Positions 2,340 through 19,177 of a stretch of DNA of 38,184 nucleotides are shown piece after piece. A program made the translations under genes and the position numbers. The stretch's first letter is position 1, and each line of letters begins with the position of its first letter. Source of the DNA: Candidatus Daviesbacteria bacterium (GTDB lineage: Bacteria > Patescibacteriota > Microgenomatia > Daviesbacterales > UBA10151); assembly GCA_016176335.1 (NCBI GenBank), contig JACOXI010000003.1, positions 72,920 through 111,103 on the forward strand, written 5' to 3'. Below the pieces are notes generated by a model. It was given only the letters and a program-made list of their open reading frames with translations. It ran no database searches and had not been told where the DNA came from.

Positions 2340-2386
2340 CCAAGTACCAAATTACAAGATTTCCAAACAATCATCAGACTCCAAAT
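2340..2386. repeat. Degenerate 7-mer tandem repeat arm downstream of four-helix-bundle gene 1
   Basis: ccaagta ccaaatt acaagat ttccaaa caat; inverted relative to 2751-2791. Confidence 0.75.
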
Positions 2387-2387
2387 T

Positions 2388-2750
2388 CTAAAGAGACTTA
2401 TTTATCATAGAGGAAAATATCTTAATGAATTCTGTGGATTCCAAAAGTTTTGGGTCAATTTCTCCTTTTAAATCTGGATTATTATGCAGAATTAATTCTA
2501 ACCAATACCTTGTTTCTTTAGCTTCCTTTCTGCATATCCTAACTCTCATATAAAAATCTTTTTTACCAAGCGCTTCATTTGCCTCTCTATAATTCGCTCC
2601 AACTGAACCTGAAGATCTCACTACTTGACTAATTAATTCGAAGTTAACTGAATTTTTGGGGAGTTTTTTGACAAGATCAATTATTTTCTTAGCAAAGTTT
2701 AGTGTTCTGTCTTCAAGATCAAATTTTCTATCTATTTGATTATTGGGCAT
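2388..2750 (-). CDS. Four helix bundle protein (23S rRNA IVP / bAvd-like family)
   Basis: 120 aa with DLEDRT..FA, QVVRSSGSVGANYREA, KEAKETRYWL family motifs. Confidence 0.92.
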   Translation of the reverse strand: MPNNQIDRKFDLEDRTLNFAKKIIDLVKKLPKNSVNFELISQVVRSSGSVGANYREANEALGKKDFYMRVRICRKEAKETRYWLELILHNNPDLKGEIDPKLLESTEFIKIFSSMINKSL

Positions 2751-2791
2751 TATTATTTGTTTGGTACTTGGTTCTTGGATACTTGGTACTT
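2751..2791. repeat. 7-mer tandem repeat arm upstream of four-helix-bundle gene 1
   Basis: tttgtttggtacttggttcttggatacttggtactt; minus strand reads aagtacc aagtatcc aagaacc aagtacc aaac. Confidence 0.8.
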
Positions 2792-3833
2792 ATTGATTGA
2801 AATAATCCAACTTCATGGCTTTTGTAACTTCTTCTAGGGTTTTTTTGGCTTCAGACCTGGCTTTTTGGGTCCCTTCTTTTAGTATTCTATCTACGAGCTC
2901 CGGCTGTTTTTCATACTGCGCTCGTTTTTTTCTAATTGGATCCAGGAAATTATTTAAAATTTTAGTAAGGTACTTTTTTACCTCAATGTCTCCTACTTGG
3001 CCTTTTGTATATTGATCCTTGTAATTTGTAATTTGGGCTTTGTCATTTTCAGAACCAAAAGCATCCAAATAAATAAATACCGGGTTTCCTTCCACTGTCC
3101 CGGGATCTGTTGAATGAATTCTTTTTGGATCTGTGTACATACTCATGACTTTCTTCTCCACTTCATCAGGAGAATCTGTTAAAAAAATGGCATTCCCTAA
3201 AGATTTACCCATCTTTGATTGACCATCTGTACCCGGCAAAGTCGGCACCTCCCCTATTAAGGGTTCGGGCAACGGGAAAACTTGTCCATATAAATTATTA
3301 AACTTGATGGCAATATCCCGGGCAAATTCCACATGGGCTTTCTGATCCTTACCAACAGGCACCAGATTGGCCTTGGGCAAAAGGATGTCAGCTGCCATCA
3401 GTACAGGATAGCTGTACAAAGCAAAGGTGTCTTGCTCCCCTTGATCCAACTTCTCTTTTAAAGCCGGTTGCCTTTCCAATACTGCCCTGGGGGTGAGAAT
3501 CCCCAAAAAATAAGCCAGCTCGGTTGTTTCCGGCACTTGTGATTGCAGTACAAAAGTGGCTTTATTGGGATCTAAACCAACCGATAAATATCCCAGCATC
3601 AGACCGCGGATGTTTTGCCCCAGATCCCCGGTTTTATCAAAATGGGTAGTCAGAGCATGCAGATCCGCTATGAGGATATACGTCTCATATTCATCCTGTA
3701 ACTTGACTCGATTCTTGAGTGAACCAATATAATTTCCCAAATGGAAACTATCATAGGTGGGCCTATCCCCAGTGAGAATGCGTTTTCTGGCATTCTCACC
3801 CTGAGCTTGTCGAAGGGTCAAAATCCTTTTCAT
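2790..3833 (-). CDS. trpS: Tryptophanyl-tRNA synthetase (likely start MKRILT at 3833)
   Basis: ILTGDRPT, HIGH-like HLGN, YPVLMAADIL, VPVGKDQ, KMSKS-like KMGKS. Confidence 0.97.
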   Translation of the reverse strand: MKRILTLRQAQGENARKRILTGDRPTYDSFHLGNYIGSLKNRVKLQDEYETYILIADLHALTTHFDKTGDLGQNIRGLMLGYLSVGLDPNKATFVLQSQVPETTELAYFLGILTPRAVLERQPALKEKLDQGEQDTFALYSYPVLMAADILLPKANLVPVGKDQKAHVEFARDIAIKFNNLYGQVFPLPEPLIGEVPTLPGTDGQSKMGKSLGNAIFLTDSPDEVEKKVMSMYTDPKRIHSTDPGTVEGNPVFIYLDAFGSENDKAQITNYKDQYTKGQVGDIEVKKYLTKILNNFLDPIRKKRAQYEKQPELVDRILKEGTQKARSEAKKTLEEVTKAMKLDYFNQ

Positions 3834-3898
3834 ATTCTTCTTAAGTATTGTATTCCCTCCCAATTCCATACGCAATAATGCTCTTATATTTTCAACTA

Positions 3899-4426
3899 TT
3901 ATCCGGCTATCGGCGCTCTAGGAAATGGTTCCAGACCACTGCTTTGAGCTTGAAACAAAATCTCTTGTCTTCTTTTCGCATCAGGCCGTCTTATAAAACT
4001 AAAACCTGATAAATCCAAGTCTACTTCAACTCCAATTAACAGTTGTCTTAATTCTAACACCCGAGCATAACCTGTTAAAATACTCTGCATCTTAAATCGT
4101 TCAGCATTCTCAGCATCGAATTCTCGATATTCCACTCGGCGATGCATCTCATATGCTATTTCCCTAATTCTACCTTTTAGATCATACGATCTATAATAGG
4201 CTCCAAAAATCCTATCATGCATGAATGTGAGACTGATGCCGAAGGTAGGACTTACTATATCATAGCAATTTTCCACACATCGCGACGGCATTACCTCCAC
4301 TCTAGCTACCCCATCCATTCTTGCGTGTTCTACAAACTCAGCAATAGTCATTCTATCAATTGCTTTAAATTGTTTAGCTATCGATCGAACTATCCCCCCT
4401 AAACCACTATTAACTATTTCTTTCAT
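3899..4426 (-). CDS. Hypothetical protein (likely start MKEIV at 4426)
   Basis: Long ORF with a strong SD (AAGGAGGTGA) just before ATG 4426, overlapping the racemase 3' end. No recognised motif. Confidence 0.7.
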   Translation of the reverse strand: MKEIVNSGLGGIVRSIAKQFKAIDRMTIAEFVEHARMDGVARVEVMPSRCVENCYDIVSPTFGISLTFMHDRIFGAYYRSYDLKGRIREIAYEMHRRVEYREFDAENAERFKMQSILTGYARVLELRQLLIGVEVDLDLSGFSFIRRPDAKRRQEILFQAQSSGLEPFPRAPIAG

Positions 4427-5150
4427 TTCTATCACCTCCTTGCATAATGTTGTTTTTGAATTGACCATAGTAAGTTTGGAGTAGTTTTTTTGCCAAGACT
4501 TCTACTGAATTGTAAACGGGTAATGTGTAATTTTTTGAGAAAACTAACGGCAATTCCGTACAACCGAGAATAATTGCCTCTGCTCCGCTTACCTTTAAAT
4601 TATCTGCGATTTTTTTGAGACACTCCCTGTCACTTGTTAATATCTTCCCTTTTATTACATTGCGTATAATTCTCGCCAGAATTGCTATTTGTCCACTGGA
4701 AGGTATTACTGTTGATATTCCATGTTTACTAAGGGCTATTTGATATAAACCATATTTTATGGTTAATGGAGTTCCCATAAGCCCCACTTTCTTAATACCG
4801 TCTCCAGAGACTTGCTTTACTGTCTCATCTATCATAGAGACAAAGGGGATCTTTGAAATCATCTGCAATTGTGGAAGTAAAATATGGGCAGTATTACAAG
4901 CAATTGATATACAAGAAGCATTCCTTATTAGCTTCACTCTTTGTTTTAGCATGTTTAATGCCTTATTGCGGCTTCTGTCGTTTGAAATAAAATCTGGCAC
5001 AGGAACTGAATATAGAACAATTTCCGGAAATTCGTCGTTGTTTTTAGCTCCGAATTGACTAATTGCTAAATCAATTAGCAATTTATACAAATAGACAGAC
5101 GCTTCAGGGCCCATTCCTCCTAGAATATAAAGTGCTTTTTTATGTTTCAT
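4410..5150 (-). CDS. PLP-independent aspartate/glutamate racemase family protein
   Basis: ILGGMGPEAS, two catalytic Cys motifs IACNTAH and ILGCTELP. Confidence 0.93.
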   Translation of the reverse strand: MKHKKALYILGGMGPEASVYLYKLLIDLAISQFGAKNNDEFPEIVLYSVPVPDFISNDRSRNKALNMLKQRVKLIRNASCISIACNTAHILLPQLQMISKIPFVSMIDETVKQVSGDGIKKVGLMGTPLTIKYGLYQIALSKHGISTVIPSSGQIAILARIIRNVIKGKILTSDRECLKKIADNLKVSGAEAIILGCTELPLVFSKNYTLPVYNSVEVLAKKLLQTYYGQFKNNIMQGGDRNERNS

Positions 5151-6244
5151 ATTCTATCCTCCAGGAATTGCTGTAAATCCCCTCTAATAGAGCTGAGCTT
5201 TTGAAGATAATCTAAATCATACTTGGCAGCTGCACCTATCTTATACGGATCCAACTTATCTGTCATACTCACGTCACCATCTGAAGCCATATAATAAGGA
5301 GGCACTTGATGTCTGGTAAAAAACTGGAATGTTAAGACTTCTCGATATCTTGCTGGTAAATATGGGTTAATTCCATGACGAAATCTATAAAAAAATCTCT
5401 CTTGTCGTCCTCCTATACTAACTATGGTTTTAGGATCTACCATAGTTGGCTGACCTTCCAAAATAGGGGCAAATGCTCCTGGTAAAGCAATGTCGTGCAC
5501 TAACAAATGCGCTGAACCATAATAAACACCTGTACCATTCCCATAAGCTTTGTTTGCCAAAGCGTGACGGGTTTGATCAGATATTACTTGATCTACTAAA
5601 GAAGATATTTCTGCCAGTTCGTCTCCTAATACGGTTCCTGCGCCTACTTGAGTGTCCCTCAACATTAATACATGGTTTTCTAATACTGGGAAAAAGGCCT
5701 CAATATAATGTCTAGCTAACTCTGCAAACTTAGTAGATTCTGCTGTTACCCGTTCAAAGTCAAGATGGTGATTGGCAGCAGCAGAAATATGATCTGCAAA
5801 AATCATCTGCAATTGAGGAACAGCTACTCCAACCTCTTTAAGGTACTCCATATATACTAAAGCTGGTAATAATCCACTCAAAGCTCGTAAAGGTAATTGA
5901 TTTGTACCTCCGTTTACTACTCTAATAACAGTTGGCGGGTCTTGAGGTTCTAATAATGCTGTTTGCATGGCAATCTTGGTAATATTGCCGAAATCCTCTC
6001 CTCCCATAGCTTCAATATATGCTGCGTTCCTTAAGTTTCTATTACCAGAAAAGAGCATGGCATCTAAAACTTTAGGAAATCTCACGTTTAACCTAGCGGC
6101 TTCGACTTCTACGCTTTGAGGTTCATAAGGATATGGAGGTAAAAAAGGAGCGAACTGCCGGAATTTTACTACCTTTCCGTCAAACTCTCCTCCTACTACA
6201 GGGATGGTATTATTATCTAAGGCTGCTCTAACTCTACCAAGCAC
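5147..6244 (-). CDS. Hypothetical protein, possible class Ic aaRS-like (HUP/Rossmann) fold
   Basis: 365 aa ORF translationally coupled (ATGA overlap) to the racemase. Motif order MIFADH / YYGSAHLLVHDI / VSIGGRQE parallels TrpRS ILIADLH / YPVLMAADI / VPVGKDQ. The fold call is inference. Confidence 0.6.
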   Translation of the reverse strand: MLGRVRAALDNNTIPVVGGEFDGKVVKFRQFAPFLPPYPYEPQSVEVEAARLNVRFPKVLDAMLFSGNRNLRNAAYIEAMGGEDFGNITKIAMQTALLEPQDPPTVIRVVNGGTNQLPLRALSGLLPALVYMEYLKEVGVAVPQLQMIFADHISAAANHHLDFERVTAESTKFAELARHYIEAFFPVLENHVLMLRDTQVGAGTVLGDELAEISSLVDQVISDQTRHALANKAYGNGTGVYYGSAHLLVHDIALPGAFAPILEGQPTMVDPKTIVSIGGRQERFFYRFRHGINPYLPARYREVLTFQFFTRHQVPPYYMASDGDVSMTDKLDPYKIGAAAKYDLDYLQKLSSIRGDLQQFLEDRI

Positions 6245-6356
6245 ACCTTTTCCGTAATTAGAACCAAACTAGCCCCTGGTCCTCGCAAGAAGACCCAGAG
6301 GTCCGTTCGTTTGTATTTGTTCCACTTATTCTTTCCATATTTTTATTCTTTTTTAA

Positions 6357-6611
6357 TTAGACTGCTTTAAATCTCCCTTTTTGTAGCTCTTTTGAGCCAC
6401 GAGTTACCGTGGCAATACCTACTCTTAATTTTTCAGCAATTCGATGCTGAGGAAGACCTTTCTTAAGCATTTTAACAATACTTAATCTAGTTGGTATTTC
6501 TTCCAATTCTTTTGGAGTCAAAATCCCCAAAAGAAAATCCTCCATCTGATCTCTTGCTTTAATGGTTAGCAATAAATCAATTAGCTCATTTAATTGTTTA
6601 TTTCTAAGCAT
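6357..6611 (-). CDS. trpR: Trp operon repressor family protein
   Basis: LTPKELEEIPTRLSIVKML...PQHRIAEKLRVGIATVTRGSKEL, the TrpR HTH signature. Confidence 0.92.
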   Translation of the reverse strand: MLRNKQLNELIDLLLTIKARDQMEDFLLGILTPKELEEIPTRLSIVKMLKKGLPQHRIAEKLRVGIATVTRGSKELQKGRFKAV

Positions 6612-6621
6612 TAGATATACT

Positions 6622-6650
6622 ATTATACTAGTATGCTAGTACTTTGTCAA
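6622..6650 (-). promoter_or_regulatory. Consensus sigma70 promoter with overlapping TrpR-type operator
   Basis: Minus strand TTGACA (6650-6645), 17 nt spacer, TATAAT (6627-6622). Palindrome GTACTAGCATACTAGTAT (6642-6625) matches the ACTAG-N4-CTAGT trp operator pattern. Confidence 0.88.
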
Positions 6651-6695
6651 GTATCATTTGAGGAGATACTTCGAGTTCCTGAAAGGTAAACCAAT

Positions 6696-7994
6696 TTATA
6701 CTATCCTGTGTTTCTCCCGTAATTCTTCGGCAACTGTGACCATTCTATCTAACACTGCAGCTCGAGTATCCACTTGATAAATCTCTGGGGGGAAAAGCAC
6801 CTGTAAAACAGGCAGGGATCGCCTTAACTCATATAAATCATGCGCCCTACCCGGATAAATACCGGTACCAGAATCTCTAGTACCTACCTCATATTCAGAG
6901 TTTAAATAACCCAGACAGGTGTAAAAAATTAATTCCAAAGGCACAGAGATATCCCTTAACTTAAGTTGTAGGCGGGTGAAGCTGGATGCTTCTGATTGAC
7001 CCCGACCCCGGTCAACATGGTGGTCCTCCATGATTTCTTCCACGCCACTGGGGTGAGACTGTAAAACTGTAGTCACTCTTTGTACCAACTCCTTTCTTTC
7101 ATTCCCCCCTCCCATCGCTACAAACATAATTCCCAAACTATCTTGCACATAGGAAAGCGGGTCAATCACTCCCCCATTATCCACTGCCTTAGCAAGTGCT
7201 TTTAAGATTGAAGCAGCATCACTCTTCTTTCTGGGATTGGTATAAACCAAAGAGTCTGTCTCTCCGATACGCCTTAGGGAGAAAGGGTGTCTTTTTAAAT
7301 GGCAGCCTTCCGGCAGGGCTCCGCAGATCTCTCTGGCCTGCTCTCTGGCATATTGTCTCGCCGTCACCAAAACCTGCACGGCAGAGTTTGTCCCGTCTTC
7401 GTGTAATGCATAGACATCAAAATCTTCCCCGTCACCAATTCTCCCTCCGTATAGCTCCCCATTAAGCAGCATTTGCACTCGTGATAACTCGGTACGCAAG
7501 CGACCATTTAATGTCCTGGAATTAAATGAGGCTGAAATATGAGACAAGAGTATATGTCTTTGTAATTCAAATTTTAATGTAGGGTTAATACCATCATCAG
7601 GATAAGCCAGTAGTCTCAACAGGTCTGCGGGGCTTTCCGAATACAGACTGACCTCGTTTTTCAAACCCAGCTCATGTCTGTAAGCAGGCAGTGCCCTGCC
7701 CAGTACAGAATCAATTACTTCTGCGGCATGTCTTTGTTGTCTTAGATAAAAATCCTGCGGGTCCATATTTTCTGGTAAGCCATATGCCCGCCTAATAAAC
7801 CCGTAGAAGTACCTGTCAGTAGCTGTGCTAAGTTGGGCGTGCGGCTCTAGTCCTTGTCTTGTTACATTGAAGAAGCTCAAACCTTCTCTTCCGTAGGCTC
7901 TACCTAATAAACCGGTTATTCGACGATCTGCTGCTGTGGATCGTCCGGTTGGTTGAAACATTTCTATAGTGATTCGTGGTAATTTTCTCTCCAT
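6696..7994 (-). CDS. Divergent RelA/SpoT-like nucleotidyltransferase-domain protein
   Basis: C-terminal half has RKKSDAASILK, QDSLGIMFV, LELIF and AHDLYE in the order of the RelA/SpoT synthetase motifs. Confidence 0.6.
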   Translation of the reverse strand: MERKLPRITIEMFQPTGRSTAADRRITGLLGRAYGREGLSFFNVTRQGLEPHAQLSTATDRYFYGFIRRAYGLPENMDPQDFYLRQQRHAAEVIDSVLGRALPAYRHELGLKNEVSLYSESPADLLRLLAYPDDGINPTLKFELQRHILLSHISASFNSRTLNGRLRTELSRVQMLLNGELYGGRIGDGEDFDVYALHEDGTNSAVQVLVTARQYAREQAREICGALPEGCHLKRHPFSLRRIGETDSLVYTNPRKKSDAASILKALAKAVDNGGVIDPLSYVQDSLGIMFVAMGGGNERKELVQRVTTVLQSHPSGVEEIMEDHHVDRGRGQSEASSFTRLQLKLRDISVPLELIFYTCLGYLNSEYEVGTRDSGTGIYPGRAHDLYELRRSLPVLQVLFPPEIYQVDTRAAVLDRMVTVAEELREKHRIV

Positions 7995-8005
7995 AATTCC
8001 TCATT

Positions 8006-8035
8006 AAAAAACAAAAATACCCCAAAGGGATATTT
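8006..8035 (-). terminator. Intrinsic-terminator-like hairpin upstream of the RelA/SpoT-like gene
   Basis: Minus strand AAATATCCC-TTT-GGGGTATTT followed by TTGTTTTTT. Confidence 0.55.
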
Positions 8036-8103
8036 CACTTGCTGTCAAGATTATATCTTACTATGGGGTAGCAGAAAAGTCAACCCTTCAATTAAATTCA
8101 GGA

Positions 8104-8856: not shown

Positions 8857-8864
8857 ACTTTAAC

Positions 8865-9779
8865 TTAAGAGAGTGTCTGTTGCAACAGTTCTGGTATCTC
8901 ATCTGGGGTCTTGGCAATAATTACTCCAGCAGATTCCAAAGCATTTATCTTTGATTTATAACTGCCTTTTTCCCCATAAATTATGGCTCCTGCATGGCCT
9001 AATTTAGTGCCTTGAGGCAAAGTTTCTGCAAAAAGACCAGAAATAAAAGCCACTACGGGTTTTGTAAACTTTCCCCTTCCCGCTTTCCCCTTCCCGCTTA
9101 TATATTCTGCCGCATCCTCTTCATATGTTCCGCCAATTTCTCCAAATAAAACAACAGATTCAGTTTGTGGATCTTTTTCAAAATCTTCCATCAGATCCGT
9201 AAAAGAAGAACCCACCAGAATATCTCCACCGATACCAATGACTGTTGATTGCCCTATGCCATTTTTGGTTAGAATCCAGGAAACCTCTGATGCCATCCCC
9301 CCGCTTTTGGAAATTACTCCGACTGATCCTTTTGAAAATACCCCCCTTGGATCATCTCCTCCAATGGAGCCTATCTTTCCAATTCCCGGAGATATAATTC
9401 CAATTGATGAAGGGCCCACAATTCTGACATTATTTTGACGAGCCAGTGCTATAGCCTTGGCGCTATCTGCGATTGGAATATGCTCTGTTAAAACATTAAT
9501 TAAGGAAATTTTTGCCTTGATAGCCTCCTCCATTGCTCCATATGCTGCAAAATTGGGAACTGCTACAAAAGAAGTATTTATTCCTGGATGGTTATCCATT
9601 GCTTCTTTGATAGTGTTATAAACAGGCACACCATGTACTTCCAAACCTCCTTTGCCCGGGGTTACCCCAGCTAAAACTTTGGTCTGGTAATTTTGCATTT
9701 GCAAAGCCACTTTGGAGCCTTCTTTGCCGGTTATTCCTTGAATTAAAACTTTTGTGTCTTGTGTAATTAATATAGCCAT
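8865..9779 (-). CDS. Succinyl-CoA synthetase alpha-like / citryl-CoA synthetase small subunit
   Basis: QGITGKEG CoA-binding fold, SKSGGM, GEIGG, phospho-His loop LGHAGA. Confidence 0.9.
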   Translation of the reverse strand: MAILITQDTKVLIQGITGKEGSKVALQMQNYQTKVLAGVTPGKGGLEVHGVPVYNTIKEAMDNHPGINTSFVAVPNFAAYGAMEEAIKAKISLINVLTEHIPIADSAKAIALARQNNVRIVGPSSIGIISPGIGKIGSIGGDDPRGVFSKGSVGVISKSGGMASEVSWILTKNGIGQSTVIGIGGDILVGSSFTDLMEDFEKDPQTESVVLFGEIGGTYEEDAAEYISGKGKAGRGKFTKPVVAFISGLFAETLPQGTKLGHAGAIIYGEKGSYKSKINALESAGVIIAKTPDEIPELLQQTLS

Positions 9780-9782
9780 TTT

Positions 9783-9815
9783 TAAGCGTGAAGCGTTAAG
9801 GGTGAAGGGTAAAGT
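9783..9815. repeat. 7-mer tandem repeat arm downstream of four-helix-bundle gene 2
   Basis: aagcgtg aagcgtt aagggtg aagggta aag; inverted relative to 10214-10244. Confidence 0.8.
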
Positions 9816-9816
9816 C

Positions 9817-10212
9817 CTAACTTCCTCCGTCCCCGCCTCCTCCTACTTTATATGTATTTTTTACTCTTTTACTCATTACATACAACATCTTCATAACTTC
9901 AGTTAGTAAAGATTCAGCCTTCGCAAAATCTAGTCTATTGAATTTACTAACTGGCTTACATATAAGAATTTGTGTTTCTAATTCGGCAGCTGAACCAAGT
10001 GCGATCAAAAGAAATTGAATATACTCTTTTCTATGTCCTCTGAGATATCCTTCTGCTATATTGCTTGGTATAGCAACAGCAGCTCTTTGCATCTGACTTG
10101 CTAAACCATAAATCTCATCCTTGGGAAATTTTTCTGTAAGTAAATAAATTTCTCTTACAAGATCCATTGCTTTTTGCCATACTATTAACTCCTTATAAGA
10201 ACTGATTTTCAT
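9817..10212 (-). CDS. Four helix bundle protein (23S rRNA IVP / bAvd-like family)
   Basis: SYKELIVWQKAM, FPKDEIYGLASQMQRAAVAIPSNIAEG, ALGSAAELETQ. Confidence 0.95.
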   Translation of the reverse strand: MKISSYKELIVWQKAMDLVREIYLLTEKFPKDEIYGLASQMQRAAVAIPSNIAEGYLRGHRKEYIQFLLIALGSAAELETQILICKPVSKFNRLDFAKAESLLTEVMKMLYVMSKRVKNTYKVGGGGDGGS

Positions 10213-11387
10213 TCTTTCCCCTTTCCGCTTCCCCCTTTACCCTTGTAGGCAAGGTCTATTATAATCTTTGCTGTACTTGTCATTGGTGTTTCCCGACCAA
10301 AAATATGAAAATCAAATCCCTCTTTTTTACCAATCTCTTTCAAAGCCTCAAAAGCTTCCTTATCTCTTGGCCCCCCTCTTCTTATCACAATTGGATAGAC
10401 AGGCTTAGGTTTTAATTCTCTTAACCCTTCCACAAATCCCATTAAAGTCTCATAAATATCAGTAAAATTGGCTGTTCCCCCCACAAACCAACAACCTTTA
10501 AGACCAGGCTTAGATAGTACTATCTGGGTTAACTTTTTCAGTTTTTCTCTGGGAGGATTGCCTGAATGTTCAGTATAATTGGCAGGTTTACCTCCTAAAG
10601 CCACTAAAGCATCCATATTGACAATAGATCCTCCACCTCCTGCCGCAATCACGGCAATATCTCCCTCCAAGTCCCAATAAACTGAACCGGCTGTACCTCT
10701 ATGATCTCCTTCATCAATCTTCCTGGCTTCAATTTCAGCTTGGGTTGGAGGTCTGCCAAACAAATTTCTTTCAGGAAATTTAATCTCCCGCCTAAAATCT
10801 GCATCATCATCCAAAATCACCTTGGCATCTAAAGCATAAACCCTGAGCGAAGTCGAAGGGTTACCTTTTACCACAACCAATGGATTAATCTCCGCCAGCT
10901 CACAATCATATTTAGTAAATACTTCCCACAGCTTTTTAGCTGTATCCATCAGCTCTTCAGGCACATTTTCACCAGAATATCCTTGTAAAATATCAACAGG
11001 ATAGGTTTTTGCTCCTTTCTCTTCTGCTCCTGTTCCACCTTCTCCAAAAGTTAAAACAGGCCCTCTAGTTTCTGTGGAATATGAAAAAGATAGATAATAT
11101 TCTTTCTCTATCTCCACCATCTCCTCCACCAAAACTTTCTCCACCTTTTCCCCATTGATTGTCTTCCCGAAAAGCTGTCTTAAACTGTCCCCTGTAACCT
11201 GTCCCCTGTCCACTTTTACAATCCCGCCACTATCTGCCCTTTTTCCGGATAATGTCTGCGCTTTCAAAACAAGTGGAGATTTAATACTGATTATCCGATC
11301 ATCTGACCCACTGATTAACTGGCTTTGTGGAACATTTATCCCACAATTTTTAAAAAGCTTTTTCCCTTCAAATTCATACAGAAGCAT
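10209..11387 (-). CDS. ATP-grasp subunit, ATP-citrate lyase beta / citryl-CoA synthetase large subunit (SucC-like)
   Basis: LYEFEGK, EINPL, ALDAK, AGGGGS and GGTANFTD, the last resembling the ACL citrate-binding GGIANFT motif. Confidence 0.88.
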   Translation of the reverse strand: MLLYEFEGKKLFKNCGINVPQSQLISGSDDRIISIKSPLVLKAQTLSGKRADSGGIVKVDRGQVTGDSLRQLFGKTINGEKVEKVLVEEMVEIEKEYYLSFSYSTETRGPVLTFGEGGTGAEEKGAKTYPVDILQGYSGENVPEELMDTAKKLWEVFTKYDCELAEINPLVVVKGNPSTSLRVYALDAKVILDDDADFRREIKFPERNLFGRPPTQAEIEARKIDEGDHRGTAGSVYWDLEGDIAVIAAGGGGSIVNMDALVALGGKPANYTEHSGNPPREKLKKLTQIVLSKPGLKGCWFVGGTANFTDIYETLMGFVEGLRELKPKPVYPIVIRRGGPRDKEAFEALKEIGKKEGFDFHIFGRETPMTSTAKIIIDLAYKGKGGSGKGKE

Positions 11388-11423: not shown

Positions 11424-11524
11424 CTCATGATATGGTAATTTTTCCCTCTTTTATGTTTGAAAAAACACCATCATCCTCACCTTCAGTATTGCCTATAGGT
11501 AATTATTTGAAAGGAGGTGATTTT

Positions 11525-11701: not shown

Positions 11702-11704
11702 TTA

Positions 11705-11783
11705 GGCCAATCTTAGTAGATTGGCTTTTTACTGCCCAGTAGAGTATGTTAATCCGCCTAGGGACAATCTTTAGGCGGATTAA
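11705..11783. terminator. Two hairpins between convergent genes
   Basis: gccaatct-tagt-agattggc followed by TTTTT (11705-11730), and ttaatccgccta...taggcggattaa (11749-11783). Confidence 0.7.
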
Positions 11784-13106: not shown

Positions 13107-13130
13107 AATTTAACTATACCCTAAATTAAG

Positions 13131-13202
13131 TAGCAGCGACTGGAATCGAACCAGTAACCTATCGCTTATGAAACGATCGCTCCGCCATTGAGCTACGCTG
13201 CC
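13131..13202 (-). tRNA. tRNA-Met(CAT), elongator
   Basis: GGCAGCG...ATCGT-TT-CAT-AA-GCGAT...GGTTCGATTCC...CGCTGCT-A cloverleaf. Confidence 0.88.
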
Positions 13203-13250
13203 ACGTTCGATTTACATGAACGTGGCTAAATTGTACCAAAAAGAATGAGA

Positions 13251-14618: not shown

Positions 14619-14681
14619 ATTTTTTCATATCAAGTATAACCTTAAGAGTAGATCAATAAAGTCTTGCGCGTCAAGAAGAAA

Positions 14682-15272
14682 TTAGGGAGCGATTCTGTTG
14701 AGGATTTTGCCAAGTACAGATTGTTCTGTTTTTACCACTTGGCCGTTTTCAGCGGAAACAAAGGCCTTGACCTTACTCTTTAGCGGGATCAACCCCAAAA
14801 GTTTATGAACTCTTACTCCATCTATCTCATAAACAAGCACACCATCCTTTTGGGTCAGTGTCACCAGCTTATCAGTACTGGCAAGTTCACCTTTGGCTGG
14901 AACTGATGTGACATAACTCATCACTTTTGATGCCAGCATATTTTGGATGGCAGCATCAGGTAAAACTGTGACCACTTTCTCGCCTTTTGGTGTAGTGACA
15001 GTAAGATTGCCTGTTTTTGGATCTACCTTCAAAGGAAAAGCAGATATTGCCCCATCTTTATTGCTGATAAACCCGGGTTTGCCACCCTCGGTGGCAATCT
15101 TGGGATTGCCTTTGGCAGTTTGCGCACCCAAAACATTATCTTGACCATCCAAATAAACTCTGGTGACCGGGATATTGGCAGAAATCAACACTCCTGCCAA
15201 AATTACTACTACAACAAGCGGTAAAAGACGGGACATTAACCTGATCATATGTGGAAAAATCAATATTGTCAA
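14682..15272 (-). CDS. Secreted/membrane-anchored hypothetical protein with PepSY-like C-terminus
   Basis: N-terminal hydrophobic helix; C-terminal LVYEI...VSAENGQVV. Confidence 0.65.
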   Translation of the reverse strand: MTILIFPHMIRLMSRLLPLVVVVILAGVLISANIPVTRVYLDGQDNVLGAQTAKGNPKIATEGGKPGFISNKDGAISAFPLKVDPKTGNLTVTTPKGEKVVTVLPDAAIQNMLASKVMSYVTSVPAKGELASTDKLVTLTQKDGVLVYEIDGVRVHKLLGLIPLKSKVKAFVSAENGQVVKTEQSVLGKILNRIAP

Positions 15273-15308
15273 CTGGTCGGATTAGAGACTATATATCTAA
15301 AAGAAGTG

Positions 15309-16562
15309 TCAGGCTGCTTTAGAGCGATATACATTAGGAGATTGTTTCAAATGCTCTGCTAAAGCACTAATAATTGGATGCGCTTTTAAGTAGTCAATAT
15401 TAGTAAAATTCGCTATCAGTTCCTGAATATGTCTGTCAAAGGCTCGAGAATATGCAGATGAGGCTTGCTCAAAAGGCATACCCCTTTTAGCAAGAGCGTA
15501 CATTAGATCTGTATAAGATTTTACTCTGCTTAACCTATCTGGAGCTATACCTAACTCTCTGCCAATATCCAATAAAATATAATAGGCTCCATTATTTATA
15601 ATTCTCATTCTGTGAACTACATTTTCGCTGGCCCTTAATCCATCGTGGCTAATATATCTTAGAGTATGAGCTAAATCTGGTCTTCTTCTCCAAAGGATAT
15701 ACATGGAGTCCTCTGAAGTTCTGCCATTCGCTTCATAGAATGGATGGATTAAGACGATAACATATTGAAAGGCTGATCCGTAGTAATAAATATTCTCTTC
15801 ATCAACCTGAGGATTAACACCTTGTTGAGGAAACATTCTTTCAGCCTGAGTTGCAATCTTCTGCATAAATTCAGGAGTCCTTTGGTAGCTAGCACACTGA
15901 ACCAATCCACCGTTAAGGTGAATATTTAAGGCTAGTCTTTGAGGGGAACGCATTACTCCTGCCAGCCTGTCTGTAGTACATAACACTCCTTCAAGGGCCC
16001 TGTTGGCTTGATCAGAATATAGGAGATAATGTTCATTACCTCTCATATGAGCACGATGAATAAGTCTGACTTGAGTTAATATGTCTACCCCATGTCTACG
16101 GTAGCGATCTAGCAGCCGATCCCTGATAGAGTCAGTACTAACTTGCCGTCTCCTGTCTGCTTCTCTCCACCTTTCTATCAGGTCAGCAGGAGCCGCAGCC
16201 CATACTAATCTGTCTCTCAAGGGAAGTGAATCTACTGGTTTGACCGGAGTGACAACTGGTACACCTTTAACTTGAGGATTTGGAGTTAGTATATCCCATT
16301 TAGGTAATCCTCCAAAGAGTTCAATAAGATTTAAGTTTAAGCCTCTGTAATTTCTTAGTGGAATGATGTTTATCTCGGGAACGATCTTAAGGTTATTTTT
16401 ATCAAACCAAATTTCCCCAAAATTCCTTTTTATTATTATTGGGATTGGGAAAGGAATGATATTCTCCTTGGGCTCGAGATTGATCTTGAGTGCATTTTGA
16501 CCCAACCAAATTTCCTCAAGATTCGGTTCTATTATCAAGTTTCTAGGTGATTCTATTTCCAT
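15309..16562 (-). CDS. Fic/DOC-domain protein
   Basis: IHPFYEANGRTSE matches HPFx(D/E)xNGR. Confidence 0.82.
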   Translation of the reverse strand: MEIESPRNLIIEPNLEEIWLGQNALKINLEPKENIIPFPIPIIIKRNFGEIWFDKNNLKIVPEINIIPLRNYRGLNLNLIELFGGLPKWDILTPNPQVKGVPVVTPVKPVDSLPLRDRLVWAAAPADLIERWREADRRRQVSTDSIRDRLLDRYRRHGVDILTQVRLIHRAHMRGNEHYLLYSDQANRALEGVLCTTDRLAGVMRSPQRLALNIHLNGGLVQCASYQRTPEFMQKIATQAERMFPQQGVNPQVDEENIYYYGSAFQYVIVLIHPFYEANGRTSEDSMYILWRRRPDLAHTLRYISHDGLRASENVVHRMRIINNGAYYILLDIGRELGIAPDRLSRVKSYTDLMYALAKRGMPFEQASSAYSRAFDRHIQELIANFTNIDYLKAHPIISALAEHLKQSPNVYRSKAA

Positions 16563-16623
16563 GTGTCCTATAGTTTAGCATAAAGGTGAATACTAGTCAA
16601 GTCACTTGGTAAATAATTGTTAA

Positions 16624-16875
16624 TCAAATAGCAACATTAAGTTTCAGAATTTTTATTTTCTTTTCTCTACTCCATTTTTTGATTTCATATTCTCTTTTTA
16701 GAGCTTGACCTTTAGTTGCTAATTTTTCTTTATAAATTAACTTGCTTGGTTTGTGAGATCTGGTGTAATGTCCGCCTGTTCCATTTTTATGGTCTTCAAA
16801 GCGTTGCCTTAGGTCATTTGAATAACCAGTATACAAACTACCATCAACACATTGAAGAATATATACATACCACAT
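16624..16875 (-). CDS. Small GIY-YIG nuclease (UPF0213-like)
   Basis: WYVYIL..DGSLYTGYSNDLRQRF..H, ALKREYEIK. Confidence 0.92.
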   Translation of the reverse strand: MWYVYILQCVDGSLYTGYSNDLRQRFEDHKNGTGGHYTRSHKPSKLIYKEKLATKGQALKREYEIKKWSREKKIKILKLNVAI

Positions 16876-16966
16876 AAATTTATTCTATCAACTCTTGAAC
16901 AACACCATACGCAAGCTTGTAGAATACTTAAGAATAAGATAAAATACACACTGTTCTTTTAAATAT

Positions 16967-17274
16967 CGCGGGGAAGTGTAACGGCTGCACACAAGGCTCA
17001 ATTTGGGCTCCACGATGGGTAACTATCGAGGATAACCTGGCTCATAACGGTGAAATCCAAAATGATAATACCGTGGGAAGGATGCCCCGTACTGTCCAGT
17101 ACAGGACATCCCCCGTAACGACTGACATTTCAGGTACCAGATATTCTGGATTCTAAACTGAAATTATACGCTAGGCCCCTGTACCATATGGTACAGGGTG
17201 ATGGTATAGTCTAAACTTTCGGAAACGGAAGAAGCATAATCTTGAGGCAGTGGGTTCGATTCCCACCCCCGCAA
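16967..17274 (+). tRNA. tRNA-fMet(CAT) interrupted by a group I intron (exons 16967-16998 and 17235-17274)
   Basis: Spliced product CGCGGGG...CAAGG-CT/CAT-AA-TCTTG...GGTTCGATTCC...CCCCGCA-A; the C1:A72 mismatch is typical of an initiator tRNA. Confidence 0.88.
16999..17234 (+). ncRNA. Group I self-splicing intron, 236 nt, at tRNA position 33/34
   Basis: Exon ends in U; P1 GGCU/GGCU with U-G pair; P7 halves AACGACTG and TAGTCT; terminal omega-G; no ORF. Confidence 0.85.
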
Positions 17275-17283
17275 CACAAAAAA

Positions 17284-17634
17284 TTAGGGGAAAAACAACT
17301 TCCACCAACCTAACCAGTTGGGAAGCCTGATAGCTGCTGATTCCGAAGCTCCCAGGATTTGTTTTATTTTCTCATCCGGAATAATCACAATGGTCTCTCC
17401 TGCTTTGCCAAGACCCAGCTTATTGCGCACTTCCTCTTCTATAAATTGGGGTGACTGAATATCCCCCAGTTTATTTTTAAGTGCTTTATTTTTGATCTCT
17501 AATTTGTAAACTGCATCTACTGCCTCGGACAAACGTTCTCCTGATTTAGTAGCCTGAATAATTTGATAAATCAGATTATATCCTGCTACAAGGCTGATTA
17601 GAATAATTGCAACCACAACAAACTTGTTAACCAT
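17284..17634 (-). CDS. ftsB: Septum formation initiator (FtsB/DivIC family)
   Basis: TM helix, coiled coil, FIEEEVRNKLGLGKAGETIVII. Confidence 0.8.
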   Translation of the reverse strand: MVNKFVVVAIILISLVAGYNLIYQIIQATKSGERLSEAVDAVYKLEIKNKALKNKLGDIQSPQFIEEEVRNKLGLGKAGETIVIIPDEKIKQILGASESAAIRLPNWLGWWKLFFP

Positions 17635-17639
17635 AGTGC

Positions 17640-17689
17640 TTGATCTTTCGACAGGCTCAAGATCAATACTGAGCGAAGTCGAAGTATTG
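17640..17689. repeat. Pair of REP-like palindromes
   Basis: ttgatct-ttcgacaggctc-aagatcaa overlapping caatact-gagcgaagtcga-agtattg. Confidence 0.8.
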
Positions 17690-17724
17690 ACAAAGTTATC
17701 CTATAGGTTTAAAATATCAGTCAA

Positions 17725-18591
17725 ATGATCTCTTTTTCTTTGGCCCATCAACAATTTATAGCCAATCTTAAGGGTAAATCCCGTGCTACAGCTACTATTC
17801 TAGCCTATGGCAAAGATATTGCACAACTGATAGATCACCTTAAAAAGGCAGGTAAGGATGATGCTTCAGTGGTCCAAACAGAGGATTTACAATCCTTTAT
17901 GGACAAATTGTCAAAAGAAAACTATACAGCCAAATCAATCTCCAGAAAGACAAACTCTACTAAAACTTTTTTTAAATTTTTACAGACAACAGGAGTCATA
18001 AGTGGTGATCCGGCCAATGCTTTGGCACATCCAAAATTTGAAAATAAACCCCCAAGAATCCTATCAAAATTGGAATATAGAGCAGTAAGGGATGGGGCAA
18101 GATCAGATATCAGAATGCTGGCAGTTATTGAACTGCTTTTGCAAACAGGTATCAGAATTGGAGAGCTGGCACAGCTTCGTTTGGAGGATATTAATCTGGA
18201 TGAGCAATCAACCTTACATGTTCCACCGTTTGAAGGGACAAACGAAAGAACCGTGCCGCTAACCAAATCTGCTGCTGATGCTGTGAGAAAATATTTGGAA
18301 ATAAGAACAAAAACCCCATCTCACTCTCTGTTTGTCACAAAAACAGGAAAACCTTTACTGATAAGAAATATCAGAACCGCAATTGACAGATATTTCAGGA
18401 TTGCCGGAATAAAAGAGGTGAAGGTGAATGATCTGCGCCACACCTGGGTGGCACATCAATTGCAATCAGGGGTACCTATGACTTTGGTTTCCAAATTAGC
18501 CGGCCACAAAAGACTTTCCACAACCGGCAGATATCTTCAATTTATCCAAAATCATTCTGCTGAAGCTAAAGTCAAATTAGAAGAGCTGTAA
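17725..18591 (+). CDS. XerC/XerD-like tyrosine recombinase
   Basis: N-terminal SAM-like domain, TGIRIGE, NDLRHT, AGH...TTGRY. Promoter TTGACA-17-TAAAAT at 17687-17715. Confidence 0.9.
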   Translation: MISFSLAHQQFIANLKGKSRATATILAYGKDIAQLIDHLKKAGKDDASVVQTEDLQSFMDKLSKENYTAKSISRKTNSTKTFFKFLQTTGVISGDPANALAHPKFENKPPRILSKLEYRAVRDGARSDIRMLAVIELLLQTGIRIGELAQLRLEDINLDEQSTLHVPPFEGTNERTVPLTKSAADAVRKYLEIRTKTPSHSLFVTKTGKPLLIRNIRTAIDRYFRIAGIKEVKVNDLRHTWVAHQLQSGVPMTLVSKLAGHKRLSTTGRYLQFIQNHSAEAKVKLEEL

Positions 18592-18595
18592 AGAT

Positions 18596-18634
18596 AAGTA
18601 CCACGGGGTTTACGGGTATCACGAGTATCACAGG
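18596..18634. repeat. 9-mer tandem array, direct repeat of 18736-18766
   Basis: aagtaccacggggtttacgggtatcacg versus aagtaccacggagtttacaggtatcacg (26/28 identical). Confidence 0.85.
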
Positions 18635-18655
18635 TTTTGGTATAATTTCATCCAC

Positions 18656-18729
18656 AGGCCCGTAGTTCAATGGTAGAACGTTTGTCTTATACACAAATCA
18701 CGAGGGTTCGATTCCTTCCGGGCCTACCA
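18656..18729 (+). tRNA. tRNA-Ile(TAT)
   Basis: AGGCCCG...TTTGT-CT-TAT-AC-ACAAA...GGTTCGATTCC...CGGGCCT-ACCA. Confidence 0.9.
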
Positions 18730-18735
18730 ACCAAA

Positions 18736-18766
18736 AAGTACCACGGAGTTTACAGGTATCACGGGG
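18736..18766. repeat. 9-mer tandem arm downstream of four-helix-bundle gene 3
   Basis: gtaccacgg agtttacag gtatcacgg, abutting the stop codon; inverted relative to 19139-19177. Confidence 0.85.
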
Positions 18767-19132
18767 CTATTTAAGACTTAGTTTGTAACGATAAAGAAAA
18801 TACCCTGCCACAGAACGCTTTTTATCAAACAACTCATAATCTTCATTGGTCCAATAACTTAATATCAAACAGATTTCGCTTTGACCTTCCAGTTCCATCA
18901 AAGAAGTTTCAGCAATTTCCATAAAGCGATTTTTATCTTTCCTGCTACTTTTAAGATAACCTTCTACAAAGTTTGAAATCACCGACACCGTCGCTCTTTT
19001 CATTTGAGGAACTAAACCAAATTCCTCAGATTTTGGCAGTTTATCTGTCAGTTTATATGTCAGAGTTAATAATTCCTTAAGCTTAGACCAAAGTATTAGC
19101 TTATGATAACCTTTGCTAGTTTTATCAATCAT
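18767..19132 (-). CDS. Four helix bundle protein (23S rRNA IVP / bAvd-like family)
   Basis: GYHKLILW, LPKSEEFGLVPQMKRATVSVISNFVEGY, SLMELE. Confidence 0.92.
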   Translation of the reverse strand: MIDKTSKGYHKLILWSKLKELLTLTYKLTDKLPKSEEFGLVPQMKRATVSVISNFVEGYLKSSRKDKNRFMEIAETSLMELEGQSEICLILSYWTNEDYELFDKKRSVAGYFLYRYKLSLK

Positions 19133-19138
19133 CTACTC

Positions 19139-19177
19139 CTCGTGGTACCCGTGGTACTCTTACCACCCGTGATACCC
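19139..19177. repeat. 9-mer tandem arm upstream of four-helix-bundle gene 3
   Basis: ctcgtggtac ccgtggtac tcttaccac ccgtgatac c. Confidence 0.85.

What the first reader, a model, noticed from the sequence alone, without database searches (positions are those of the whole stretch)
2340..19177. Three four-helix-bundle genes, each caged by its own inverted short-tandem-repeat arms: candidate mRNA-level intervening-sequence element
Seen: all three IVP/bAvd-like genes (2388-2750, 9817-10212, 18767-19132) are closely flanked by tandem arrays in inverted orientation. The repeat unit differs for each copy, while the two arms of one copy are complementary. Copy 1 has CCAAGTACCAA/TTGGTACTTGG (7-mer). 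Copy 2 has AAGGGTAAAG/CTTTACCCTT (7-mer). Copy 3 has GGTATCACGGG/CCCGTGATACC and AGTACCACGG/CCGTGGTACT (9-mer). Each cassette is co-oriented with the host transcript: after trpS, inside the ACL-like operon, and after the ATPase. Known: this family occurs in excised 23S rRNA intervening sequences, and its homologue Avd is the nucleic-acid-binding accessory of diversity-generating retroelements. Inference: the arms pair in the transcript and loop out the ORF as an IVS-like stem. The result would be a transposase-less mobile or regulatory cassette that is excised or recognised at RNA level, with arm sequences co-evolving per copy.
Basis: partly seen in the sequence, partly recalled or inferred. 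Interest (0 to 1): 0.85.

Follow-up and report, generated by a model that had tools for sequence, protein, structure and literature searches.

The report
Four-helix-bundle genes inside repeat hairpins
Three small genes of unknown function each sit in the loop of a hairpin built from short tandem repeats, the same layout as the intervening sequences that fragment ribosomal RNA, and this layout accompanies the gene family in many bacterial phyla.

Summary
All three ORFs are PF05635/TIGR02436 four-helix-bundle (4HB) genes. Each lies between copy-specific, mutually complementary short tandem arrays. In this 925-kb genome, 6 of 6 such genes have a perfect inverted flank match of 10 nt or more, against 15 of about 830 other ORF calls. 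The layout recurs in relatives (18 of 27 loci) and in loci labelled as non-CPR phyla (16 of 37, against 3.6% of non-cognate pairs). In sister genomes the same anatomy forms the 23S rRNA helix-45 intervening sequence. Relatives show empty sites and ORF-less hairpins at the same gene junctions. The genome itself holds an ORF-less twin of cassette 2 with near-identical arms. The arms covary. Best reading: IVS-type insertion elements living outside rRNA, in ORF-bearing and ORF-less forms. Not shown: RNA-level excision. No RNA run was listed, and the stems show no G·U excess over A·C, so a DNA-level palindrome role remains open. My searches found the rRNA IVS, heptamers in the Coxiella IVS and Xanthomonas heptamer pairs, but not this general link.

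The parts
2757..2793 (-). Cassette 1, 5' arm: about four degenerate 7-8 nt units, ending 6 nt before the ATG and starting directly after the trpS stop
   Evidence: D3, D9, I2, I5; closes the MFE stem
2388..2750 (-). Cassette 1 ORF, 120-aa four-helix-bundle protein (PF05635 62.3 bits; TIGR02436 80.9 bits)
   Evidence: 83% identical to the orthologous cassette protein of G001
2340..2372 (-). Cassette 1, 3' arm: outer 12-nt perfect partner at 2340-2351 and inner degenerate unit at 2360-2372
10213..10244 (-). Cassette 2, 5' arm (AAGGGTA/AAGGGGA/AAGCGGA-type units on the minus strand); it encodes the last 11 codons of the upstream ATP-grasp/citrate-binding gene
   Evidence: 31 of 31 nt identical to the ORF-less twin at G000:C5:243851-243881
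9817..10212 (-). Cassette 2 ORF, 131-aa four-helix-bundle protein (PF05635 126.7 bits); its ATG overlaps the stop of the upstream gene
   Evidence: nearest solved structure 2GSC, E 1.5e-20
9784..9816 (-). Cassette 2, 3' arm, ending 4 nt before the ATG of the CoA-ligase alpha-like gene
   Evidence: 33 of 36 nt identical to the twin
19136..19179 (-). Cassette 3, 5' arm (9-nt units of GGTACCACG / GGTATCACG type), filling the gap between the stop of the HerA/TrwB-like ATPase gene and the 4HB ATG
   Evidence: (I1, I3-I6)
18767..19132 (-). Cassette 3 ORF, 121-aa four-helix-bundle protein (PF05635 88.4 bits)
18736..18766 (-). Cassette 3, 3' arm, abutting the stop codon
   Evidence: D1, I3, I6
18596..18634 (-). 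Second, direct copy of the cassette 3 3' arm (93% over 28 nt) on the far side of tRNA-Ile(TAT) at 18656-18729 (+)
   Evidence: (D1)
9069..9099 (-). Array of the cassette 2 unit family inside the CoA-ligase alpha-like gene, read in frame as a 6-aa insert (GKGKAG)

Best explanation
Each of the three genes is the ORF-bearing form of an IVS-type insertion element. A PF05635 four-helix-bundle gene sits in the loop of a long hairpin. The two arms of that hairpin are copy-specific, mutually complementary short tandem arrays, mostly heptamers. SHOWN: (1) the anatomy, and its specificity to this gene family in this genome, in relatives and in many phyla; (2) the same anatomy at the helix-45 site of 23S rRNA, and in a group-I-intron-like loop, in sister genomes; (3) insertion polymorphism, meaning empty sites and ORF-less hairpins at the same gene junctions in relatives, plus an ORF-less twin with near-identical arms elsewhere in this genome, so ORF plus arms, or arms alone, get copied; (4) the two arms change together; (5) the coding sequence looks constrained. 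INFERRED: the cassettes lie between co-directional genes with gaps of -4 to 62 nt upstream, so they are probably co-transcribed. The arms would then pair into a duplex of 20 bp or more. The genome encodes RNase III, which would cut that duplex without religation, as it does for rRNA IVS. This would release the 4HB mRNA and separate the flanking messages. The basic, Avd-like protein probably binds the arrays or the stem of its own element. How the element is copied at DNA level is unknown.
For: Family identity. Arms. Specificity: 6 of 6 4HB genes against 15 of about 830 other ORF calls. The only two-sided cages with a 350-450 nt gap in the genome hold 4HB genes. Relatives: PF05635 found in 36 of 41 genomes. 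Cognate flanks match at 10 nt or more in 18 of 27 loci, against 32 of 702 non-cognate pairs. Across phyla: 45 of 77 loci against 208 of 5852 non-cognate pairs. Core stem median 23.5 nt, ending a median 18 nt before the ATG and restarting a median 4 nt after the stop. rRNA link: 4HB genes lie inside 23S genes on the same strand in G013, G002 and G021, with inverted heptamer-like arms at the helix-45-like site. The Coxiella IVS has a 28-bp terminal stem cut by RNase III and tandem GACAGAT heptamers before the S23p start (PMC4990558, passages read). Polymorphism: none of the 16 other genomes that have the upstream gene carries a 4HB at the copy 2 junction; five show directly overlapping genes; G025 and G018 carry ORF-less hairpins there. 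28 of 30 trpS loci lack a 4HB. The orthologous cassette in G001 is 83% identical in protein, while trpS and ftsH are 56-58% identical. Twin: G000:C5:243851-243927. Covariation: 94 cells changed on both sides against 52.9 +/- 6.0 in shuffles (0 of 500 as high); score 0.257 against 0.12 when slid by one column. All three MFE and centroid folds close with the arm-arm stem. RNase III gene present. Codon-position divergence 0.37/0.29/0.55 and pI 9.2-9.7 in 5 of 6 proteins.
Against: There are no RNA data, so cleavage, co-transcription and even expression are untested. The sense strand shows no excess of G·U over A·C mismatches (58 vs 61, 241 vs 275, 29 vs 42), so nothing points to RNA rather than DNA pairing. 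In G006 a cassette sits in the 23S-5S spacer antisense to the rRNAs. Whole-transcript z-scores are modest (-2.0, -2.7, -1.95). Not every locus passes the 10-nt test: 9 of 27 relatives and 21 of 37 non-CPR-labelled loci fail. L012 has direct rather than inverted arrays, and L113 has no 3' array. The units within one array are copies of each other, so the covarying pairs are not independent. Template-switch correction of quasipalindromes (recalled mechanism) could produce concerted change without selection. Cutting operon mRNAs would carry a cost. No target-site duplication or mobility enzyme was identified.
Confidence: 0.6

Rival explanations
1. The palindrome works as DNA, not RNA. The arms extrude as a cruciform or fold in single-stranded DNA, or they serve as 30-35 nt homology arms that let the ORF be swapped in or out of hairpins sharing the same arms. 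They are kept complementary by template-switch (quasipalindrome) correction and replication slippage. On this view, pairing in the transcript is a by-product.
For: G·U and A·C mismatches are equally common in the stems. One cassette is antisense to the rRNA operon in G006. The ORF-less twin has 31 of 31 and 33 of 36 identical arm bases at another locus. G000 and G025 each hold a copy-2-type cassette and an ORF-less hairpin of the same unit family, but at swapped places. Arrays also enter coding regions in frame. Assembly contigs break at these hairpins.
Against: Elements of the same anatomy in 23S rRNA are processed as RNA by RNase III (PMC4990558). All six cassettes in G000 are co-oriented with the upstream gene, which a strand-blind DNA element need not be. 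No recombinase, nuclease or target duplication was found. This reading is not exclusive of RNA processing.
Confidence: 0.25
2. The stem is chiefly a control device for the 4HB gene itself. Pairing of the 5' arm, which ends just before the ATG, with the 3' arm hides the start region or stabilises the message. The basic, ring-forming 4HB protein binds its own heptamer units, one unit per subunit as TRAP does with its triplets, to autoregulate.
For: The 5' core stem ends a median 18 nt before the ATG, and in the window the arms abut the ATG. Proteins are basic. The homologue 2GSC was deposited with five chains and is described as a homopentameric toroid in PMC4990558. Arrays usually have 3-6 units. 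Arm unit family goes with protein subfamily, for example CNAARYN units across the 26 subfamily-1 loci.
Against: There are no binding data. The link between unit family and protein clade is equally explained by common descent of ORF and arms. ORF-less hairpins exist without any gene to control. One of the six proteins is acidic (pI 5.9).
Confidence: 0.2
3. Coincidence: this genome is littered with heptamer arrays in its short intergenic gaps, so any small gene will be flanked by them.
For: 261 period-7 arrays against 21 in a shuffled genome. 87 of 381 gaps of 40 nt or more hold an array.
Against: Cognate inverted matches occur in 6 of 6 4HB genes against 15 of about 830 other ORF calls. Cognate pairs far exceed non-cognate pairs in two independent locus sets. 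The same layout appears in genomes sampled without an array excess (G006: 0 arrays in 40 kb) and in isolates of other phyla.
Confidence: 0.01
4. The genes are Avd accessory proteins of diversity-generating retroelements.
For: Weak matches to bAvd (PF22296, 22 bits) and to NF033474 (24-25 bits). PF05635 is treated as Avd-like in PMC10053308.
Against: Both matches lie far below the cut-offs of 40 and 80 bits. No reverse transcriptase (PF00078) was found in the 96.9%-complete genome. No template or variable repeat lies nearby.
Confidence: 0.02

Closest known systems
ORF-bearing 23S rRNA intervening sequence (Coxiella burnetii IVS with S23p; Leptospira IVS, the latter recalled)
   Same: A PF05635 ORF in the loop of a stem made by terminal inverted repeats; tandem heptamers next to the ORF start; sporadic, horizontally spread distribution; no transposase (PMC4990558, abstract and passages). 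Sister genomes of this window carry such IVS at the helix-45-like site, with the same kind of arms.
   Different: The window copies lie between protein-coding genes of operons and next to a tRNA gene, not in rRNA. The arms are almost wholly tandem arrays. The ORFs look constrained, whereas the Coxiella ORF is reported as decaying and probably untranslated. ORF-less twins exist in the same genome.
ORF-less 23S rRNA IVS of Enterobacteriaceae and others (mentioned in PMC11270868 and PMC4990558; details recalled)
   Same: Short stem-loops inserted into a transcript and removed by RNase III without religation. They parallel the 39 ORF-less hairpins seen here.
   Different: Here the hairpins sit at gene junctions and are built of heptamer arrays. 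Their processing is untested.
Intergenic heptamer arrays: Xanthomonas GGGAATC repeats, often as convergent inverted pairs; cyanobacterial STRR; Beggiatoaceae TAACTGA (PMC4692102 and PMC4679880, passages)
   Same: Period-7 tandem arrays in intergenic DNA. In Xanthomonas, 70-75 sites are inverted pairs able to form stem-loops.
   Different: Those papers make no link to PF05635 genes (term searches gave 0 hits). One unit dominates each of those genomes, whereas here the unit differs from locus to locus.
Avd of diversity-generating retroelements
   Same: Homologous four-helix-bundle fold; basic; nucleic-acid-associated (PMC10053308).
   Different: No RT, template repeat or variable repeat; scores below the family cut-offs.
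MITEs and their autonomous parents; REP/BIME elements (recalled)
   Same: Small palindromic intergenic elements in long (ORF-bearing) and short (ORF-less) forms that share ends.
   Different: No transposase, no target-site duplication seen; ends are tandem arrays that differ between copies.
ORFs lodged in peripheral loops of group I introns (homing endonuclease genes; PMC11270868)
   Same: In L032, L121 and L122 a 4HB cassette of about 520 nt sits between two motifs that are only about 30 nt apart in the window's own tRNA intron and in L120.
   Different: The ORF is not a known endonuclease, and it brings its own array arms.

Membership tests
IVS-type element (ORF-bearing 23S rRNA intervening sequence) | ORF encodes a PF05635 / TIGR02436 four-helix-bundle protein | tested here: met
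   all three ORFs score above both curated cut-offs
IVS-type element (ORF-bearing 23S rRNA intervening sequence) | Terminal inverted repeats that pair into a stem enclosing the ORF | tested here: met
   covariation in 26 homologous cassettes
IVS-type element (ORF-bearing 23S rRNA intervening sequence) | Tandem heptameric repeats beside the ORF start (described for Coxiella) | tested here: met
IVS-type element (ORF-bearing 23S rRNA intervening sequence) | Inserted in 23S rRNA (helix 25 or 45) | tested here: not met
   The window copies lie after trpS, inside an ACL-like operon and after an ATPase gene. The feature is met by homologous cassettes in G013, G002 and G021. The 23S gene of G000 itself is not assembled.
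IVS-type element (ORF-bearing 23S rRNA intervening sequence) | Excised from the transcript by RNase III without religation | not testable with these tools
   An RNase III gene is present. No RNA run was listed.
IVS-type element (ORF-bearing 23S rRNA intervening sequence) | Sporadic presence/absence among relatives | tested here: met
DGR accessory protein Avd | Score above the family cut-off, and a neighbouring reverse transcriptase with template and variable repeats | tested here: not met
   NF033474 scores 24-25 bits against a cut-off of 80. No PF00078 match in the genome.
MITE / IS-type transposable element | Conserved terminal inverted repeats shared by copies, target-site duplication, and a transposase in the long form | tested here: not met
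   Arms differ between cassettes. No duplication is seen at the copy 2 junction or at its twin. The only ORF is the 4HB gene.
Intergenic heptamer-array inverted pairs (Xanthomonas GGGAATC type) | Period-7 tandem arrays in convergent pairs in intergenic DNA | tested here: met
   261 period-7 arrays against 21 in a shuffled genome; 39 local hairpins. Whether they are the same kind of element as in Xanthomonas was not tested.

The most novel reading that the evidence does not exclude
PF05635 four-helix-bundle genes and inverted short-tandem-repeat hairpins form one pan-bacterial class of transposase-less insertion elements, and the classical 23S rRNA IVS is only its best-known habitat. The ORF-less heptamer hairpins and arrays scattered through bacterial genomes (STRR-like repeats, Xanthomonas GGGAATC pairs, the 39 hairpins here) would be its non-autonomous derivatives. 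The ring-shaped 4HB protein would read the heptamer units, one unit per subunit, and drive or guard their copying into loops of structured RNA genes and into gene junctions.
Probability: 0.15. Interest if true: 0.9.

Novelty: new variant of a known kind. Interest (0 to 1): 0.72.

Why it matters
PF05635 / 'four helix bundle protein' is a very widespread bacterial family of unknown function. In the 41 genomes searched here, each has 0 to 13 matches. Its only described context is the rRNA IVS, whose origin and purpose have been open for decades. Here the gene carries its own inverted tandem-repeat arms wherever it sits: in rRNA, rRNA spacers, a group-I-intron-like loop, next to tRNA genes, and inside operons. 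ORF-less hairpins with the same arms also exist. Together this turns the IVS from an rRNA curiosity into a general element with two forms. It also gives a concrete lead on why heptamer repeats are so common in bacterial intergenic DNA. It makes the protein's function testable through cognate-array binding and RNase III-dependent processing. A practical point: these arrays add tails and inserts to host proteins and break assemblies.

Tried and rejected
RNAduplex energy between flanks did not discriminate: 4HB genes ranked 6, 44, 57, 80 and 303 of 835. I replaced it with the longest perfect inverted match.

Far inverted partners of arrays other than those around 4HB genes were mostly one-sided 9-mers, so I did not count them as cages.

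No further diverged 4HB genes were found with a family HMM built here.

The 23S rRNA is not assembled in G000, so its own IVS state is unknown.

The look-up of sequencing runs listed no RNA holder: 8 DNA runs from 2 studies.

Read laying used DNA contigs only. No long contig lacked a cassette. The joints 9815->10214 and 18634->19137 have sides of 30 nt or less. The first is explained by the paralogous ORF-less twin in G000. The second was not found in G000. Neither is evidence of excision.

Array density against 4HB content was sampled at 40 kb or 20 kb per genome. Five 4HB-free relatives had 7 arrays in 200 kb (shuffled 6). Six relatives with 5 or more 4HB genes had 18 arrays in 200 kb (shuffled 8), ranging from 0 to 20 per 100 kb. 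This is a weak trend only. The load in G000, 28 per 100 kb, is exceptional.

The G·U versus A·C test gave no RNA signature.

In Thiohalocapsa the cassette's unit also occurs as lone arrays elsewhere, but I saw no ORF-less hairpin twin in the three loci inspected.

Rows dropped before the covariation count: L101 (frameshifted ORF in two pieces), L102 (contig end) and L113 (no 3' array, a case against the structure). That left 26 of the 29 loci other than the window's own L090 that one search listed, counting L090 among the 26. One search skipped 1 of 28 loci because it was near a contig end. One search skipped 3 of 80 for the same reason.

Not in print, as far as my searches reach (and the term look-ups): a link between PF05635 genes outside rRNA and inverted heptamer arrays. 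Table S4 and Fig. S3 of PMC11270868 might bear on rRNA copies.

Full report
THE OBSERVATION. The window lies in a 925-kb, 7-contig, 38% GC genome that is 96.9% complete. The closest named relative of its copy 2 protein is a Candidatus Levyibacteriota MAG at 72% identity. They match PF05635 (23S_rRNA_IVP) and TIGR02436 (four helix bundle protein) above the curated cut-offs. The nearest solved structure is 2GSC of Xanthomonas, E 1.5e-20. Perfect inverted arms of 10-12 nt lie at the coordinates given, within degenerate tandem arrays of 7-9 nt units that differ from copy to copy. In RNA sense, the 5' arm fills the gap between the stop of the upstream gene and the 4HB ATG, and the 3' arm starts at or just after the stop. 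In copy 2 the 5' arm is read as the last 11 codons of the upstream gene.

TRF finds 261 period-7 arrays in this genome, against 21 in a shuffled copy. Fifty of them have a reverse-complement 9-mer partner within 60 nt, which gives 39 local ORF-less hairpins of median span 87 nt. Of these, 26 lie between co-directional genes, 3 between convergent genes, 2 between divergent genes, 5 inside called ORFs and 3 at contig ends. A control was therefore essential.

CONTROLS. For 835 crude ORF calls I took the longest perfect inverted match between the 5' flank (-90..+10) and the 3' flank (stop-60..+90). Twenty calls reach 10 nt, and five of those are 4HB genes. The sixth over-threshold 4HB gene had a miscalled start and reaches 11 nt once corrected. 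That makes 6 of 6 against 15 of about 830 (Fisher p about 1e-10). A seventh, sub-threshold hit (31 bits, 177 aa) has no inverted match. Direct matches are not enriched. The only two-sided cages with a 350-450 nt gap in the genome hold 4HB genes.

GENERALITY. PF05635 matches occur in 36 of 41 related genomes, including G000, at 0-13 per genome. I took one locus per genome. Of 28 loci, 27 were usable, and 18 of those 27 have a cognate inverted match of 10 nt or more, against 32 of 702 non-cognate flank pairs. A scan of species genomes with the copy 2 subfamily gave 80 loci, of which 77 were usable. The test is passed by 20 of 27 loci labelled CPR, 16 of 37 labelled as other phyla and 9 of 13 with unclear labels, against 208 of 5852 (3.6%) non-cognate pairs. 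The other-phyla group includes isolates of Thiohalocapsa, Flavobacterium and Capnocytophaga among its passing loci. By eye most of the rest also carry arrays on both sides. A core stem is found in 58 of 77 loci, with a median length of 23.5 nt. It ends a median 18 nt before the ATG and resumes a median 4 nt after the stop. The layout is therefore a property of the gene family, not of this genome.

LINK TO THE CLASSICAL IVS. I crossed the places of 23S genes in relatives with the places of 4HB genes. 4HB genes lie inside the 23S gene on the same strand in G013, G002 and G021. In G002 and G013 the insert is at the helix-45-like site and is bracketed by inverted heptamer-like arrays. Warrier et al. 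2016 (PMC4990558; abstract and passages read) describe the Coxiella IVS. It has a 28-bp terminal stem cut by RNase III, an S23p ORF in the loop, and two or three tandem GACAGAT heptamers before the start codon. Other habitats were seen here too. One is just 3' of the 23S gene (G002). One is the 23S-5S spacer, antisense to the rRNAs (G006). Several are next to tRNA genes (the window's copy 3; L030 and L031). In L032, L121 and L122 the cassette sits between two motifs that are about 30 nt apart in the window's own tRNA intron and in L120 but about 520 nt apart there.

IT IS AN INSERTION. Copy 2 lies between the two subunit genes of an ACL-like operon. The upstream gene is found in 16 other genomes, and none has a 4HB gene at that junction. 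In G007, G017, G023, G015 and G006 the two genes overlap directly. G025 carries an ORF-less hairpin of the same unit family at the same junction. G018 carries an ORF-less hairpin of another unit family there. G011, G009 and G014 carry other inserts. Copy 1 follows trpS, and 28 of 30 trpS loci show no 4HB gene. G001 and G348 carry the orthologous cassette. Between G000 and G001 the 4HB protein is 83% identical and the arms and spacers align, while trpS and ftsH are only 56-58% identical. That points to transfer or unusually strong constraint. DNA of cassette 1 finds relatives in 40 of 401 genomes of the class, in varied contexts.

THE ORF-LESS TWIN. G000:C5:243851-243927 carries the two arms of cassette 2, with 31 of 31 and 33 of 36 bases identical. 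They are separated by a 10-nt loop instead of the 398-nt ORF. The twin lies between two other co-directional genes in the same layout: the stop codon is inside the 5' arm, and the next ATG comes a few bases after the 3' arm. Arms of cassettes 4 and 6 also have relatives among solo arrays, whereas cassettes 1, 3 and 5 have none in this genome.

THE ARMS CHANGE TOGETHER. I aligned 26 subfamily-1 cassettes (A1) and tested a 34-pair long-range stem. 71.6% of cells are paired, against 48-49% when the 3' partners are slid by one column. 94 cells are changed on both sides, against 52.9 +/- 6.0 in shuffles (0 of 500 as high). The covariation score is 0.257, against 0.165 in shuffles and 0.12 when slid. 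The second base of each heptamer switches U:A, C:G or G:C in step on both arms. One caveat: the units within an array are copies of each other, so the pairs are not independent.

RNA OR DNA? All three window cassettes fold, in both the MFE and the centroid structure, with the arm-arm stem closing the molecule, at z -2.0, -2.7 and -1.95. The genome encodes RNase III. All six cassettes are co-oriented with the upstream gene, and five of six with both neighbours. But G·U and A·C mismatches are equally frequent on the sense strand: 58 vs 61 in A1, 241 vs 275 in local alignments, and 29 vs 42 in strict cores from 79 of 104 cassettes. No RNA run was available. RNA-level excision thus rests on analogy with the rRNA IVS. 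A DNA-level role of the palindrome, or concerted repair of the two arms, remains a live rival.

THE PROTEIN. Five of the six proteins are basic (pI 9.2-9.7). Codon positions diverge at 0.37, 0.29 and 0.55, as expected for a constrained coding sequence. No reverse transcriptase is found in the genome, and Avd models score far below their cut-offs. These are therefore not DGR parts.

WHAT IS KNOWN. The rRNA IVS and its RNase III processing are known. So are the heptamers in the Coxiella IVS and 23S_rRNA_IVP ORFs in CPR rRNA insertions (PMC11270868; passages). Intergenic heptamer arrays are also described, including 70-75 inverted pairs in Xanthomonas (PMC4692102; passages). My searches found no paper that ties PF05635 genes outside rRNA to cognate inverted arrays, reports ORF-less twins, or reports arm covariation.

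VERDICT. This is a real and striking feature. It is best filed as a new variant of the IVS kind: the same element class living outside rRNA, with ORF-bearing and ORF-less forms, and family-wide across bacteria. The mechanisms of processing and of copying are inferred, not shown.

Noticed in passing
whole genome G000 (e.g. C3:33431-33537, C3:36961-37062): The genome carries 261 period-7 tandem arrays, against 21 in a shuffled copy, and 39 ORF-less hairpins made of inverted arrays, mostly between co-directional genes. A few unit families, such as AAACTCA/AAATCTC, recur at many loci.
   Followed up: partly
window 9069-9099: An array of the cassette 2 unit family lies inside the CoA-ligase alpha-like gene and is read in frame as a 6-aa insert (GKGKAG). 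Of four relatives compared, only G025 shares the insert, and G025 is also the genome with the same-family ORF-less hairpin at the upstream junction.
   Followed up: partly
window 18596-18766: tRNA-Ile(TAT), on the plus strand, is bracketed by two direct copies (93% over 28 nt) of the cassette 3 3' arm. Either the arm was duplicated around the tRNA gene or the gene was inserted into the array.
   Followed up: no
window 16960-17275: A tRNA-like gene is split in its anticodon loop by an insert of about 235 nt. Contigs of other community members join 16998 to 17233/17235 without the insert. Neither ARAGORN nor Rfam calls it. The insert carries the two motifs that flank 4HB cassettes in L032, L121 and L122.
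   Followed up: partly
window 32280-32481 (-): Rfam reports a group I intron match (53 bits, gathering score 50). I did not look at its host gene.
   Followed up: no
window 2270-2335: Downstream of cassette 1 lie the start and end of a Trbp111-like tRNA-binding gene. This gene is intact between trpS and ftsH in G001, G348, G019, G013, G024 and G040. In G000 it looks like a deletion remnant.
   Followed up: partly
G000:C5:35769-36302 (-): A 177-aa ORF has a sub-threshold PF05635 match (31 bits). TATAA-type tandem units lie upstream and also, in direct orientation, inside the ORF, where they encode a run of Y/N residues.
   Followed up: no
G000:C3:109497-109957: Inverted CGATTAA-type arrays bracket the C-terminal part of an ATP synthase gamma-like reading frame. 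This may be an array insertion inside atpG.
   Followed up: no
G000:C1:79994-80063 and C3:219197-219263: Two contig ends carry the same heptamer hairpin in reverse complement. In one search contigs also break at the cassette 2 5' arm. Assemblies therefore break at these elements.
   Followed up: no
L096 (G006:C8), 1362-2583: A subfamily-1 4HB cassette sits in the 23S-5S rRNA spacer but on the strand opposite to the rRNAs.
   Followed up: partly
L015, L011, L019 3' flanks: The 3' arms of one orthologous cassette group are CCCTAA/CCCTAAA-type arrays, which resemble telomere repeats. This is probably coincidence.
   Followed up: no
window 16624-16875 (-): A free-standing 83-aa GIY-YIG domain ORF lies next to the split tRNA-like gene.
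   Followed up: no
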